The translations under genes and the position numbers were made by a program. The notes beneath the pieces were generated by a model that saw only the letters and a program-made list of their open reading frames with translations, was not told where the DNA came from and did not search any database. This document shows positions 9,010 to 13,491 of a stretch of 64,000 nucleotides of DNA, in pieces. This DNA comes from the human T2T-CHM13v2.0 reference genome, Homo sapiens. The stretch lies in assembly GCF_009914755.1 (NCBI RefSeq), contig NC_060938.1. One strand, written 5' to 3'. How positions within the stretch are numbered: the first letter of the stretch is position 1; each line of letters opens with the position of its first letter.

Positions 9010-9430
9010 TAGTAATAAGCACTGACATGGCGCTTACCACGTGCCAAATTCTATTCTTTATGTTTATGGATATTACCTTATTCAATCCCCACCATAACCC
9101 TATGGAGTGAACGTTATCCTCACTCCATAGGATGAGGATATTATTATCCTCTTTTTTAAACCACTTTTTATGTGCAATATCTACCTTTAAAAATATCTAT
9201 TAGTAAACAGCTGAATTATAAAAAATCAATTTCACTCCAGCAAACCTCGAGTGCCCAAGGCCGACAACAAATGACTCAGCGAGTAAAATAAAGGTAGAAC
9301 AAAGCAACAAGGACAAGTAAGACTTTAAGTGATTATTATTACCTCATTTTTACAGATGCTAAAGGTTAAGATGCAAGAACACGAGTGTCAAGTTCTGGTT
9401 CCAGACTACATGCTCGTGGCCACTACACTC
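9010..9430 (-). mobile_element. MIR split by the inverted insert at 9162-9332
   Basis: aatccccaccataaccctatgg on the left and ttattattacctcatttttacagatg...ggttaag on the right are consecutive in the reverse MIR consensus. Confidence 0.65.
9162..9332. repeat. Inverted repeat pair 1, left arm (reverse complement of 10584-10756)
   Basis: Manual alignment: about 16 substitutions and one 2-nt indel over 171-173 nt (~90%). Confidence 0.95.
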
Positions 9431-10583
9431 TGCTGCTGCCTCATATTCTATATGCCTTGTACACTGTAACTCCACTGAAGTGCTGGTGGTGGTGGCGTGT
9501 GTGTGTGAGAGGGAGAGAGAGAACTGGGGCATCGGGAGGCCCCTAGCCCTCACACCTACCAGCCCAGCCACTGTGCAGAATGCAGGGATGAGTTGTTTCA
9601 TTTCAGGTGTTCACTCTGCTTTTTGCAGAACATATTGTCCCTTGAAGGATATTAATACAGGAAATGAATAAAGAGTGGCTTCAAAACAAATTTGAGACCA
9701 GGACAGCTTCCATCTTATGTGTTTCAGATAAATAAGCCCTTACAGTAATCAACTCTTCAGGGCCAGACCTCTCTCCCTGGAATATGAAGTGCTCCAGCAC
9801 ACTGTAAACAACAGTGATGTGACTCATTTCCTGAACTGTGTCGTGGCCATCTGCTCAAATATCTGCCTTCCTTTTCCTGTATTCTAATGATACAGCAACT
9901 CTATGGACAATTATGTAGCCATTAAAAATGGCAATTTAAATTTTCAAAGTTAAAATGCATAACAATGTGGGGAAAATGCCTATAATACAATGTTAAGTGA
10001 AACAATTGCACACAAGAGGTGCATGTATGTAAAATGTGTATGCACGAGGCCAAGGCCTAGAAGGACATGGAAAAGGAAGCTTGTTTTCAAAAACTGGAGA
10101 CTTCTTTTTTAAAGTTTCACATATACTTTTAAAATTAGAAATAAAGCAAGACGCTTCGTTGTGCAATTTCACTGCCATCAACTACAAACATAATGTTTAC
10201 ATACCGACCCAGTTTTTTTGGAGCTGGGAGGATCTCTAAGATTGATAAAAAATAGTTATTAAAATGGCAGATTTTTCTGGATATGGGAAAACTTATCATA
10301 AGAGAAGTATGTCGTTTCCTTATCCTGTTTGAAATTTTTTAATGGTTGGAGAACTTGTGAGGAAGGAGATTAAGAATGAAACAGTAATCTTTTCTTTAAA
10401 ATGTTATCTCACACCAGATACAGAGAATAAATGAGCAGTTTCCAATCCTTTTTAGGAAGGAGGCAGGACATAAATAAACAAAATATGGACTACATGAAAT
10501 ATAACTTAAGCAATCTCCCTAGATACATTTTTCAATAAACCTAAAATCTATTAGGTATTTTTGTAGTTCTTCATTTCCTTTAC

Positions 10584-10756
10584 TCACTTAAAGTCTTACT
10601 TGTCCTTGTTGCCTTGTTCTGCCTTTATTTTACTCACTGAGTCATCTGTTGTCAGCTTTGGGTACTTGAGGCTTGCTGGAGTGAAAAGAATTTTTTATAA
10701 TTCAGCTCTGTTTACTAATACATCTTTTTTAAGGTAGATATTGCACGTAAAAAGTG
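10584..10756. repeat. Inverted repeat pair 1, right arm (probable donor)
   Basis: tcacttaaagtcttacttgtccttgttgc...gatattgcacgtaaaaagtg is the reverse complement of 9162-9332. Confidence 0.95.
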
Positions 10757-10929
10757 TTTTTTTTTTTTAAAAATCAGCCAATGCCCTTGTGAAGCTACTT
10801 CATTTGCTCTGTTGGTCCAGGTCAGCTAAGTTTCCCACACATCTTTAGTATTGATGCATCAAAGGACTTAGTGAAATTAATCAACTGCATTTTAGAATGA
10901 AGGCTTCATTCCACAGGATGTGTGGGCCG

Positions 10930-11071
10930 TTAACAAAAGTGAATTTTTCCCAACTCAAAACGGTATAGAAAGGAAAATGTAAATGAAATGACTTGGAGTA
11001 AGTTCAGTATAAGGCTAATTTTTCTTAAGGGTAAGCTTGTGGTTTAGGTTAGAACTCATCAAGTTAATTGT
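10930..11071. repeat. Inverted repeat pair 2, left arm (probable donor)
   Basis: Reverse complement aligns to 12291-12431 with about 25 substitutions and 1 gap over 142 nt (~82%), including the exact 19-mer atttacattttcctttcta. Confidence 0.93.
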
Positions 11072-11439
11072 CTTCTGATCCTTGAAAGTCAAATCCAGAC
11101 ATCTTCTTGATGATTCCTGTTACCAAAGTCTCTGGTACAAGTGATGTTTCCTGAGCCTTCTTAAAGACTCTGATGCTAAGGAGGTCCTTCGGGAACCCAG
11201 TGCTAATAACGTATGATACTGGAATAAAAAAGCAATGGAGTAAATGAACTTGCTGAGAAGGACCCCAGTGAACCATTGTTCCTGAATATAAAAACTAATT
11301 CCTGAAGATTGTGGCCAAAAAGTAGGTCCCAGTGGAAAAGAAGGAGAATCAGAGTTTGGAAATGTGATGAAATTTCCATTGGCATAGCAGAGAGTAGATC
11401 TTGTCACTAGTTGACATGTGCTGCTGCCAAGGTGTGGCC

Positions 11440-11705
11440 CTTGGGAGAGTACAGCTAATGGCCTCAGCGTCACCTGGAGGTCTGTTACAAATGCAGATAG
11501 ACCACGAAAGGATTTTTGTCTCTTCGTTCACTTCCATCACCCTAGTGCCTTTAACAATGTCTGCACATAATTGCTGGACGAATGAATTTCTTGAGCCCAA
11601 TCCCAAATCATTGAACTAAAATCTCTGGGGGCAGGTCCCAAGAATCTGTATTTTAACAGGATCCCCAGTTGGTCCTCAGGCATAGTTTAGTGTGAGAACC
11701 ATTGC
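11440..11705. mobile_element. MER5A/B (hAT-Charlie) with an L2 3'-end-like piece inside (~11505-11588)
   Basis: tcagcgtcacctggag...gttacaaatgcaga, then later aaaatctctggggg...aatctgtattttaacag...tgagaaccattg; the intervening part ends in gaatgaat like an L2 tail. Confidence 0.6.
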
Positions 11706-12216
11706 CCTCCTGTACATGGATACTGGCCAGTGTAGTACAGTGTTGATTCCCCTGAAAGCACCAAACTCTAGAAACCTGAAAATGAAGGAACAGCCGCACC
11801 TTGGTTTCTACTATGATTATGATGATGATTCTCTGGTATTGCATAAAACGTTTACACCCAATATATCCAGGGGTTAGGTTAGGCAGTTACACTTATTCCC
11901 ATTTCACAGTAGAAAAACTTGGACATATGCAAGGTCAGATAATTAACAAAAAAAGAATCAAAACCTACCCCACTAGACAAAGTTTAGGAGATGATGTGCT
12001 AAGCCTGAACTGGACAACGTGACATAATTAGCAAAGAGTGAAGGACAGCACTCCACTTGGGTCTATTATTGTTATGACCAAGGTCATTTTAAAGTATCAG
12101 AGCCACTCTCCAGGCGAGTTATAGGAAGAGGCCACAAAGAACCCGAAGAGATGGCGTCTTTCAACCACCTCTGTTACTCTGCCAGTGATCTGAGAACAAA
12201 AGGCCCTCTTGGGCTA

Positions 12217-12290
12217 AAAAGAACAAGTTACGGAGTCAGAAGCGGGTATTAGGGAAGGGAAAGTGAGCCAATCCCTGGGGCTCACCAGGA
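12217..12290. repeat. Inverted repeat pair 3 arm (diverged reverse complement of 12903-12977)
   Basis: gtgagcc-aatccctg matches GTGAGCCCAATCCCTG, with collinear, mostly transition-type similarity (~65-70%) over ~70 nt. Confidence 0.65.
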
Positions 12291-12431
12291 ACAATTAATT
12301 TGTTTAGTTCTAACTAACCCATGGGTTTACCTTGAATGAAAGTTAGCATTATATTGAACTTACTCCGAGTCATTTTATTTACATTTTCCTTTCTACATCA
12401 TTTCGAATTGGGAAAAATTAGATTTTGTTAA
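12291..12431. repeat. Inverted repeat pair 2, right arm
   Basis: acaattaatttg...gggaaaaattagattttgttaa; reverse complement of 10930-11071. Confidence 0.93.
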
Positions 12432-13491
12432 TTTTAGCTCCTTGGGCAAAAGGCACCGCATTCATTCCCAGCATTATCATTCCCAACACTTCGCATAGTA
12501 TTAGATCACTTTCCTATAATCACTTCATTCTCTTTTATGAGACTTGAGGTTTAATTGGAGGTTCCAATAAGAGACTTTATGTGTTTAATGGATTTTGGTA
12601 TAATAATCAGAGTCTGAAATGCTAGTCAGAAGGCCAGTTGACTTCTAATGAGGCTGCACTTGGGAGAAAAGGGTTTTAAAGATACTACAAGTCTATGCTG
12701 TAGAAGTAGACATGCAAATGTTTAGGGAAAGATGTAAAGTGTCTTGTTACTTCTAAATCACAGGCATGTGTACTCCAAAACCTATTGTTAGACTGGGTTA
12801 ACTGGTGAAAAACATTCAAATTGATGAGTGGGCAGTTCAACTTTTGAGAGGGACTCAGTGAAAATAGTAACGGGACACTCGGATGCATTCTCCTGTTGGC
12901 CACTTCTGGAGGCTTCAGGGATTGGGCTCACCCTCCTTTCGCTGGTAACCCCTCGTGACCCCTCGGCCTGGGCTTCTCTTCCTCCTGCACGCTCCCCTGC
13001 AGAGTGGAACACAGACTTTCCAGCCCTCCTAACTGCAACCCTTCCTTACCGTCTCCAAAACATGCACCTGCTCACTTCTTTTTAATTATTACTTAAGGAA
13101 TTTTTCAACTGGACACGCTAAGGAAAATGGGATTACAAAATAAACAAGAAATGAGGAAATTGAATATTATGGGAAATCTTATATTTATAGCTATATCAAA
13201 GCAATTTCCCTAGGAAATTTTATGGTATATTGCTGGCTAGGCATTTTCTTACTTTCCCATTACTCGTGGGAATATTTTAAACAGAAGACAAGCACTCTTA
13301 CCATGGAGCTATATTAAACTTAATATATTTAAATACTACATATTGCATATCTCAAATATTACGTGTTTTGCCTACACATGGAAACTAATTTTTAAGTGGC
13401 CTCACCCACAACCAAGGACTCTCTGCCCTTCCCAAGGTGGAAATGTGAGAGATGGATCTTCCCTGCTTCTCCCTCCAGGCCACAAGCTTTT

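What the first reader, a model, noticed from the sequence alone, without database searches (positions are those of the whole stretch)
9099..12977. Symmetric three-arm inverted-repeat architecture built from apparently non-transposon DNA around a 500-bp hub
Seen: 9162-9332 pairs with 10584-10756 (spacer 1251 nt, ~90%), and 10930-11071 pairs with 12291-12431 (spacer 1219 nt, ~82%). 12217-12290 pairs with 12903-12977 (~65-70%). The two hub arms flank a 173-nt palindrome-rich core, and I recognise none of the arms as a known repeat. Inference: the different divergences imply at least two separate copying events, both drawing on the same hub and landing inverted at nearly the same distance on opposite sides. 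That suggests either a local hotspot for template switching or retention of long stems. A transcript on either strand could fold into two long non-Alu duplexes plus a third arm. Function is unproven.
Basis: partly seen in the sequence, partly recalled or inferred. Interest (0 to 1): 0.8.

Follow-up and report, generated by a model that had tools for sequence, protein, structure and literature searches.

The report
Fossil inverted copy-paste insertions, human chr14
A 6-kb stretch of a human lncRNA intron holds old inverted copies of nearby single-copy DNA that were pasted in at two sites, one as a three-piece patchwork, and they look like neutral scars of faulty DNA repair or replication, not transposons or a selected RNA structure.

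Summary
The two main inverted pairs are real: 9158-9335/10581-10760 (about 90%) and 10930-11071/12291-12431 (82%). Each arm matches only itself and its partner in the whole T2T genome, so they are not a young dispersed repeat. The hub core is not unusually palindromic.

The structure is not a symmetric three-arm hub.
- Arm 9159-9333 is an insert. It sits between a 19-of-20 direct repeat that acts as a target-site duplication.
- 11993-12431 is one composite insert. Its three abutting pieces are inverted copies of three templates that lie in the same order at 10930, 12904 and 14925.

The three divergences do not differ significantly (p=0.14), so separate ages are not shown.

Best reading (0.45): a polymerase at a break or stalled fork switched templates onto nearby opposite-strand DNA (FoSTeS/MMBIR-like). 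Close rival (0.35): a cDNA of a spliced minus-strand RNA was captured, because GT..AG dinucleotides flank the internal junctions (chance about 0.002).

The mismatches show no sign of selection for pairing. This is a new member of a known kind, of moderate interest.

The parts
9139..9158 (.). Left copy of the target-site duplication flanking insert A
   Evidence: It is a 19/20 direct repeat of 9334-9352. Random sites scored as well in 3 of 3000 and 7 of 4000 trials.
9159..9333 (.). Arm A: a derived, inverted copy of 10581-10760 inserted into older DNA
   Evidence: It is 89-90% identical to the reverse complement of A'. It is bracketed by the direct repeat. In the whole genome it matches only itself and A'.
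9334..9352 (.). Right copy of the target-site duplication
   Evidence: The repeat ends in a T run followed by A, which reads directly as TTTTT/A.
10398..10557 (+). Segment retro-copied to chr10, which marks a + strand polyadenylated RNA end 23 nt before arm A'
   Evidence: It is 95.6% identical over 160 nt to L008 1501-1660. There it lies after an L1 3' end and A run and is followed by AAAAA. An AATAAA lies about 10 nt before the end of the match in the window.
10581..10760 (.). Arm A': template of insert A. A T13-A5 run follows it to 10778.
   Evidence: It has no significant flanking direct repeat of its own (1668/3000; 361/4000).
10761..10929 (.). Hub core between the two templates. It is not unusually structured.
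   Evidence: DNA fold z = -1.13, with 31/200 shuffles as good. Two small inverted pairs were found.
10930..11071 (.). Arm B: template of the third piece (B') of the composite insert
   Evidence: It is 82% identical to the reverse complement of 12291-12431. In the genome it matches only itself and B'.
11993..12230 (.). Piece D of the composite insert: an inverted copy of 14925-15162
   Evidence: 85-87% identity. It is genome-unique apart from its partner.
12232..12290 (.). Piece C of the composite insert: an inverted copy of 12904-12962
   Evidence: Its partner is the best non-self hit of the 68-nt linker in the 64-kb window, E=0.001. The Smith-Waterman alignment has about 71% identity over 58 columns.
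12291..12431 (.). Piece B' of the composite insert: an inverted copy of 10930-11071
   Evidence: It abuts piece C with no spare base.
12904..12962 (.). C': template of piece C
13483..13813 (.). Alu in the spacer between C' and D'. It is not part of the structure.
   Evidence: It matches 10 or more other Alu-like copies in the window at 73-84%.
14925..15162 (.). D': template of piece D

Best explanation
The region holds two old templated insertions. Both are built from nearby single-copy sequence and pasted in inverted.

Insert 1 (9159-9333) is a copy of 10581-10760, with a duplication of about 20 bp at its target. Insert 2 (11993-12431, 439 bp) is a patchwork. Read on the opposite strand it is copy-of-10930-11071, then copy-of-12904-12962, then copy-of-14925-15162, which is the order of those templates on the chromosome.

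Shown: the homologies, their uniqueness in the genome, the direct repeat around insert 1, and the contiguity and collinearity of insert 2.

Inferred mechanism: at a stalled fork or a resected break, a free 3' end left its template and annealed by a few bases to exposed DNA of the opposite strand 0.6-3.2 kb away. It copied 60-240 nt, hopped again twice for insert 2, and then returned. This is FoSTeS/MMBIR-type template switching. For insert 1 the return was about 20 nt behind the point of departure, which gives the duplication.

All pieces have since decayed neutrally by about 10-18% between partners. That is compatible with one episode some tens of millions of years ago, an age inferred from similar divergence among the window's Alu copies. 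The long RNA duplexes are a by-product of the copying.
For: - **Local and unique.** Each arm finds only itself and its partner in 3.1 Gb. A control repeat finds 11,412 candidates.
- **Clustered.** These are the only short-range low-copy pairs in the 64 kb.
- **Polarity of insert 1.** It is bracketed by a 19/20 direct repeat that abuts it (3/3000; 7/4000). A' has no such repeat.
- **Insert 2 is one unit.** D ends at 12230, C runs 12232-12290 and B' starts at 12291. All three partners are inverted and collinear. B and D pairs are interleaved, which nested transposon insertions cannot produce.
- **Junction detail.** Six bases, CTTCTG, are shared by the sequence after B and the start of C'. One spare base lies at the C/D junction.
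- **One age is possible.** Chi-square p=0.14.
- **Neutral decay.** G:U against A:C is 29:24, and 10 of 53 transitions are at CpG.
- **Precedent in print.** Passages of PMC8421209 describe germline templated insertions copied from several nearby templates with microhomology. One example has three parts. The authors propose that such events accumulate over evolution.
Against: - Microhomology is not statistically convincing. With +-8 nt slack, 6 exact bases occur by chance at P=0.077, and the second junction has only 4.
- Insert 2 has no flanking duplication (2307/4000), so the two inserts do not share every feature.
- The internal junctions of insert 2 are flanked by GT..AG on the minus strand, which template hopping on DNA does not predict. 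With the same slack, chance is about 0.002.
- The pieces (59-238 nt) and template distances (0.6-3.2 kb) are larger than those in the catalogue I read. That catalogue searched for templates only within 100 bp.
- Polarity of insert 2 rests on parsimony, because no outgroup genome was available.
- D' is itself bracketed by an exact 12-nt direct repeat lying 13 and 32 nt outside the arm (29/4000). I cannot explain this.
Confidence: 0.45

Rival explanations
1. The inserts are pasted copies as in the best reading, but the template was RNA. An unannotated minus-strand transcript has exons at 15162-14925, 12962-12904 and 11071-10930. It was spliced, then reverse-transcribed from a break end inside its own second intron and sealed in, inverted. 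Insert 1 would be a second cDNA piece from the same locus. The inverted orientation follows if the sense-strand 3' overhang primed on the RNA by a few bases. The reverse transcriptase could be L1 ORF2p or polymerase theta. Both enzyme names are recalled and untested.
For: - On the minus strand, exon a is followed exactly by GT. Exon c is preceded exactly by AG. Exon b is followed by GT once its homology is extended 2 nt to meet B' with no spare base.
- With the same slack, the chance of the four dinucleotides is about 0.123^2 x 0.227^2 + 0.167^2 x 0.188^2 = 0.002, computed from the frequencies.
- Three pieces in one orientation and in chromosomal order are obligatory for a spliced RNA and only optional for DNA hopping.
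- The piece lengths (238, 59, 142 nt) and gaps (1.96 and 1.83 kb) are exon-like and intron-like.
- The locus did feed RNA into retrotransposition at least once (chr10 copy).
- Insert 1 has a 19-20-bp duplication at a TTTTT/A site and an A run at the template end. These are features recalled as typical of L1 target-primed reverse transcription.
- PMC11702581 (passages) reports local inverted duplications from ORF2p-made break ends.
Against: - Insert 2 has no poly(A) and no target duplication.
- The acceptor of exon b is GA, and it reads AG only if shifted 1 nt. That shift leaves 1-2 unexplained bases at the a/b junction.
- Both acceptors lack a pyrimidine tract and both donors are weak.
- RefSeq lists no minus-strand gene here (hub table).
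- The only RNA evidence in hand is for the + strand.
- A retrocopy landing within 3 kb of its parent is very unlikely unless the RNA acts in cis.
- No other copy of these 'exons' exists in the genome.
Confidence: 0.35
2. Three or four unrelated small inverted duplications hit the same 6 kb at different times. The abutting of D, C and B' would then reflect a recurrent break site.
For: Point estimates of divergence differ: K2P 0.109, 0.158 and 0.207. A against B gives p=0.068. Insert 1 has a target duplication and insert 2 has none.
Against: The divergences are homogeneous at p=0.14. Three independently inserted arms that abut within 0-1 nt, and whose partners are also collinear and co-oriented, would be a large coincidence (my inference puts the chance below about 1 in 1000).
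Confidence: 0.08
3. The pairs are terminal inverted repeats of two or three low-copy DNA transposons (9158-10760, 10930-12431, 11993-15162).
For: The elements would be 1.5-1.6 kb long with 140-180-nt terminal inverted repeats. A 9-nt low-complexity match, TTTTTTAAA, lies at the two outer ends of A..A' (31/3000).
Against: - No other copy of any arm or interior exists in the genome, apart from one unrelated 160-nt retrocopy and one old repeat fragment.
- B..B' and D..D' interleave.
- B..B' and D..D' have no flanking duplication.
- The 19/20 repeat brackets arm A alone, not the whole 'element'.
- No coding remnant was looked for beyond an ORF list, which was not scanned against protein families.
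Confidence: 0.03
4. The inverted repeats are kept by selection because the LINC02284 intron, or an antisense RNA, must form long double-stranded stems. Possible roles would be an editing or Dicer substrate, or control of splicing or circularisation.
For: All arms lie in one intron (6468-20953) of a + strand lncRNA (hub table). Predicted duplexes are very stable, and A-A' forms 160 pairs in the minimum-energy fold of 9100-10820. In pair B, transitions favour G:U on the + strand 13:4.
Against: - Over all pairs G:U against A:C is 29:24.
- The 13:4 count is one of six strand-by-pair comparisons, with a nominal p of about 0.05 that I calculated by hand. No call computed it.
- Mismatches include 7-8 transversions per pair and CpG decay.
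- The B and D stems exclude each other topologically.
- Covariation cannot be tested without orthologues.
- The only three papers that mention LINC02284 do so once each, and none is about it (search listing).
Confidence: 0.05

Closest known systems
Microhomology-mediated templated insertions (MMB-TI; FoSTeS/MMBIR), as catalogued in human germline and tumours (PMC8421209, passages read; PMC2621351, search listing only)
   Same: The inserted sequence is copied from nearby DNA, often from the opposite strand. Several templates can be used in one event. Short shared bases lie at the switch points. The synthesis returns to the original locus. Such events are proposed to persist as evolutionary variants.
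   Different: The pieces here are 59-238 nt and the templates lie 0.6-3.2 kb away, whereas that catalogue searched within 100 bp. Here the microhomology is statistically weak. One insert carries a flanking duplication of about 20 bp.
Processed retrocopies and L1 target-primed reverse transcription, including local rearrangements of ORF2p-made break ends (PMC11702581, passages read)
   Same: The copy is intron-less, with GT..AG at the source boundaries. Insert 1 has a 19-20-bp target duplication at a TTTTT/A site with an A run at the template end. That paper reports inverted duplications at target sites.
   Different: There is no poly(A) tail. Insert 2 has no duplication. It landed inside its own source locus. 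The splice signals are weak and no annotated parent gene exists.
Short-range template-switch mutations that create hairpins in primate genomes (recalled; no paper was read)
   Same: A stretch is replaced or inserted by the reverse complement of neighbouring sequence, which creates an inverted repeat. A 12-bp perfect hairpin of this type lies at 9099-9131 next to insert 1.
   Different: As I recall, those events span tens of bases with templates a few tens of bases away. Here the scale is 10-100 times larger.
Inverted duplications at inversion breakpoints made by staggered breaks (recalled from Drosophila work; no paper was read)
   Same: It gives interleaved inverted pairs in the order a, b', a', b.
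   Different: It predicts that a abuts b' and that a' abuts b. Here B is 921 nt from D and B' is 2.5 kb from D', so the prediction is not met.

Membership tests
Terminal-inverted-repeat DNA transposon | Other copies of the family in the genome | tested here: not met
   Each arm query gave 2 candidates, itself and its partner. The interiors gave only an unrelated 160-nt match and one old repeat fragment. The control repeat gave 11,412 candidates. Caveat: the search finds nothing for about 70%-diverged old repeats.
Terminal-inverted-repeat DNA transposon | Target-site duplication flanking the whole element | tested here: inconclusive
   A..A' has a 9-nt T/A-run match (31/3000). B..B' scored 1950/3000 and D..D' 2875/3000, so neither has one.
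Terminal-inverted-repeat DNA transposon | Elements nested or disjoint, never interleaved | tested here: not met
   The order on the chromosome is B 10930, D 11993, B' 12291, D' 14925.
Templated insertion by template switching (FoSTeS/MMBIR) | The insert is a copy of nearby sequence absent elsewhere, and its polarity can be told | tested here: met
   Uniqueness. Insert 1 is bracketed by a 19/20 repeat. Insert 2 is composite. No outgroup confirmation was possible.
Templated insertion by template switching (FoSTeS/MMBIR) | Several templates joined in one insert | tested here: met
   D, C and B' abut within 0-1 nt and their partners lie at three separate sites.
Templated insertion by template switching (FoSTeS/MMBIR) | Microhomology at the switch points | tested here: inconclusive
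   6 nt and 4 nt were found. The chance of 6 or more with the slack used is 0.077. About 15% later divergence blurs the junctions.
Processed retrocopy (L1 target-primed reverse transcription) | Loss of introns bounded by GT..AG in the source | tested here: inconclusive
   Two of the four dinucleotides are exact. One more is exact after a 2-nt extension of the homology. The fourth is off by 1 nt. Joint chance is about 0.002. The pyrimidine tracts are weak.
Processed retrocopy (L1 target-primed reverse transcription) | 3' poly(A) tail next to the target duplication | tested here: not met
   B' ends ...GTTAA and is followed by TTTTAG. D starts without a T run. Insert 1 has only an A3/T6 run shared with its template.
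Processed retrocopy (L1 target-primed reverse transcription) | Target-site duplication of 7-20 bp | tested here: inconclusive
   Met for insert 1 (19/20). Not met for insert 2 (2307/4000).
Selected long-hairpin RNA | Compensatory or pairing-preserving substitutions | tested here: not met
   G:U against A:C among transitions is 29:24 over the three pairs, with 22 transversions. True covariation needs orthologues, which these tools cannot supply.
Selected long-hairpin RNA | Transcription across both arms and evidence of a duplex (editing, cross-linking) | not testable with these tools
   Only the annotation is available: all arms lie in one LINC02284 intron (hub table).

The most novel reading that the evidence does not exclude
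The 439-bp block 11993-12431 is a cDNA of a spliced, unannotated minus-strand transcript with exons at 15162-14925, 12962-12904 and 11071-10930. The cDNA was captured, inverted, at a DNA break inside that transcript's own intron. It would be a fossil of RNA-templated break repair acting in cis. The parent pre-RNA would then carry an intronic sequence complementary to three of its own exons. Insert 9159-9333 would be a second capture from the same locus.
Probability: 0.35. Interest if true: 0.65.

Novelty: new member of a known kind. Interest (0 to 1): 0.35.

Why it matters
The arms are single-copy and about 85% identical, so every junction can still be read. That makes the locus a clean, datable example of a multi-template inverted insertion fixed in the human lineage. 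Its scale (60-240-nt pieces, kilobase jumps) is one that short-read catalogues of templated insertions do not search. The locus could calibrate searches for such scars in T2T assemblies. If the RNA reading is right, it would be a rare natural record of a spliced transcript being copied back into its own gene. It would also point to an unannotated antisense gene next to LINC02284. Either way, it shows that long non-Alu intronic duplexes can arise as repair by-products, so their existence alone is not evidence of function.

Tried and rejected
- **Extension of the arms into their flanks.** Six flank pairs were tested and none scored above chance (601 to 4960 of 5000 random pairs did as well). The apparent extra homology in a permissive alignment was therefore dropped.
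- **Target duplication around D, B, B' and A'.** None is significant.
- **Identity of insert 1's flanks.** I read them as one MIR element split by the insert, from memory of the MIR consensus. I could not confirm this. Genome searches with either flank found only the query, and nhmmer/BLAST inside the window found no other copy. The same calls show that the genome search misses old repeats.
- **Soft-masking in the window file.** None is kept.
- **Coding remnants.** Only an ORF list was made: 30 stop-to-stop frames of 60 aa or more, the longest inside the region being 135 aa. It was not scanned against protein families.
- **Inversion-breakpoint model.** Rejected on the adjacency it predicts.
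- **Earlier findings of this scan.** These were closed to the session.
- **Literature on LINC02284.** There are 3 papers with one mention each, and none is about this region (search listing).
- **Cross-species comparison, RepeatMasker/Dfam, RNA-seq and editing data.** No tool here offers them.

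
Full report
**The observation**

A repeat search over 8500-13600 found inverted arms at 9209-9335/10581-10707 and 9158-9210/10708-10760. These are one pair split by a 2-nt gap. It also found 10930-11047/12314-12431.

BLAST of 8000-14500 against the window gave:
- 9158-9335 / 10581-10760, 88.9% over 180;
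- 10930-11071 / 12291-12431, 81.7% over 142;
A more permissive scoring extended this to 11993-12230 / 14925-15162, 85.3% over 238.

I then used the 68 nt that separate the D arm from the B' arm (12223-12290) as a query against the whole window. The same partner was the best non-self hit, with E=0.001 against 0.21 for the next. Smith-Waterman extended it to 12232-12288 / 12906-12962.

In a self-comparison of all 64 kb, these are the only short-range, low-copy pairs.

The 169-nt core between the hub arms is not unusually self-complementary. Its DNA fold has z = -1.13, and 31 of 200 shuffles fold as well.

**Dispersed repeats?**

Searches of the window's own 3.1-Gb assembly found, for each of arms A, B and D, two first-look candidates: the arm and its partner. 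A 2.7-kb query covering 10761-13480 added only three weak hits (73-78%) to one short stretch, 11588-11708, which is an old dispersed repeat.

The interior 9336-10580 gave one unrelated 160-nt match on chromosome 10.

As a positive control, a repeat at 20748-21132 gave 11,412 candidates.

As a negative control, the flanks of arm A, which I take from memory to be a MIR, found nothing but themselves. The tool is therefore blind to families whose copies are about 70% alike. This does not rescue the repeat explanation. Two independent copies of such an old family would not be 82-90% identical to each other while every other copy is undetectable.

**Which member of each pair is the copy?**

Arm A is bracketed by a direct repeat. 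9139-9158 matches 9334-9352 at 19 of 20 positions with one gap. Random sites with the same spacing scored as well in 3 of 3000 trials and 7 of 4000 trials. None of A', B, B' or D has an abutting repeat. So 9159-9333 is an insert and 10581-10760 is its template.

The repeat ends in a T run followed by A, and the template ends in a T13-A5 run. From memory, these features resemble L1 endonuclease sites and A-run priming. They would equally serve as annealing microhomology.

**The composite insert**

D (to 12230), C (12232-12290) and B' (from 12291) are contiguous. Read on the minus strand, the block is B-like, C'-like, D'-like. That is the order and orientation of the partners at 10930, 12904 and 14925.

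Three independent insertions would not be expected to abut to the base with collinear partners. The reverse polarity, with the block as source, would need three separate insertions that drew on adjacent parts of it. I therefore read 11993-12431 as one composite insert. It has no flanking duplication (2307 of 4000 random sites score as well).

The B and D pairs interleave (B, D, B', D'). This rules out nested transposons and also means the two RNA stems cannot both form as a simple junction.

**Age**

Mismatches are 18/178, 25/141 and 32/230, giving K2P distances of 0.109, 0.207 and 0.158. Homogeneity is not rejected (chi-square 3.89, p=0.14). Fisher tests give A against B p=0.068 and A against B+D p=0.11. 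One episode is therefore possible, and two are not excluded.

The distances are of the order of those between Alu copies in the window (73-86% identity). I take this as a rough indication of tens of millions of years. That figure is an inference and not a dating.

**DNA or RNA template?**

Two signals compete at the internal junctions of the block.

(a) *Microhomology.* The six bases after B (CTTCTG) recur at the start of C'. The end of C' and the sequence before D' share a similar heptamer or octamer, and one spare base sits at that junction. With +-8 nt slack, however, 6 exact bases occur by chance at P=0.077, and the second junction has only 4 exact bases.

(b) *Splice dinucleotides.* On the minus strand:
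- the D' piece is followed exactly by GT;
- the B piece is preceded exactly by AG;
- the C' piece is followed by GT once its homology is extended 2 nt to meet B' with no spare base;
- the C' piece is preceded by GA, which becomes AG if shifted one base.

With that slack, the per-site frequencies in the window give a joint chance of about 0.002 over both strands.

Against splicing:
- both acceptors lack pyrimidine tracts, and the donors are weak;
- 1-2 bases at one junction are unexplained;
- there is no poly(A) and no duplication;
- no minus-strand gene is annotated;
- a retrocopy landing in its own parent locus needs a cis mechanism.

For DNA switching, the local and inverted nature of both inserts is the expected outcome. 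Multi-template germline insertions with microhomology are documented, although at much shorter range (PMC8421209, passages).

I put DNA template switching at 0.45 and RNA capture at 0.35. Together, 'local templated copy-paste' stands at about 0.85 once separate events are included.

**Function**

All arms lie in the LINC02284 intron 6468-20953 (hub table). The duplexes would be very stable, at -128 to -375 kcal/mol against -30 to -97 for shuffled partners. The minimum-energy fold of 9100-10820 contains 160 A-A' pairs.

The substitutions nevertheless look neutral. There are 53 transitions and 22 transversions. Ten of the transitions are at CpG. Transitions leave G:U 29 times and A:C 24 times on the + strand. 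Only pair B shows a lean (13:4). This is one of six comparisons and is not significant after correction.

I found no published work on this region. Three papers mention LINC02284 once each (search listing).

**Side finding bearing on transcription**

Window 10398-10557 is 95.6% identical to chr10:57,242,229-57,242,388. There it follows the 3' end and A run of an L1, with about 16 unrelated bases in between, and it is followed by AAAAA. In the window an AATAAA lies about 10 nt before the end of the match.

A + strand RNA ending 23 nt before arm A' was therefore polyadenylated and retro-copied at some time. A possible 9-nt duplication around the whole chr10 insertion is weak.

**Limits**

- No outgroup genomes, repeat library, expression data or editing data could be consulted.
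- The MIR and hAT-like labels, the L1 endonuclease consensus, the reverse-transcriptase activity of polymerase theta and the FoSTeS model are recalled and were not tested.
- PMC2621351 and PMC11724301 were seen only in a search listing.
- PMC8421209 and PMC11702581 were read as passages only. Their supplements were not opened.

Noticed in passing
window 10398-10557; L008 1501-1660 (chr10:57,242,229-57,242,388 of the same assembly): A 160-nt stretch is 95.6% identical between the two loci. On chr10 it follows an L1 3' end plus A run and about 16 unrelated bases, and it ends in AAAAA. The window has an AATAAA just before the end of the match. This looks like an L1-mediated chimeric retrocopy or 3' transduction of a + strand RNA polyadenylated at about 10557.
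   Followed up: partly
window 9099-9131: A perfect 12-bp inverted repeat with a 9-nt loop (9099-9110 / 9120-9131) lies just left of insert A. It was flagged by nhmmer (E=0.006) and BLAST (E=0.008). It has the look of a short template-switch mutation.
   Followed up: no
window 14901-14912 and 15195-15206: An exact 12-nt direct repeat brackets arm D', but 13 and 32 nt outside the homology (29/4000 by chance). If it were a target duplication, D' would be part of a 282-nt insert, and the polarity of the D pair would be in doubt. It remains unexplained.
   Followed up: partly
window 11588-11708, and by eye 13890-14060 and 14430-14800: These are fragments of one old dispersed repeat. The first gave 73-78% hits on chr5, chr15 and chr9. 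From memory it resembles a hAT-type miniature element. The other two were seen only by reading the sequence.
   Followed up: no
window 35570-40804 vs 44001-49531: A direct duplication of about 5.2 kb at a spacing of about 8.4-8.7 kb. It is 80% identical over 4.4 kb, then 76% over 0.95 kb of low-copy sequence, with an extra Alu-sized gap in the second copy. It is partly L1-like, since it also matches 58111-62248 at 67-68%.
   Followed up: no
window 49721-49933 vs 49987-50199: Two adjacent direct copies of about 213 nt at 70% identity with a period of 266 nt.
   Followed up: no
The genome search on the window's own assembly: The DNA search returned no other copy for two roughly 145-nt queries that I believe are MIR. 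'Only itself' from this tool therefore excludes young families (at least about 75-80% identity) but not ancient ones.
   Followed up: yes
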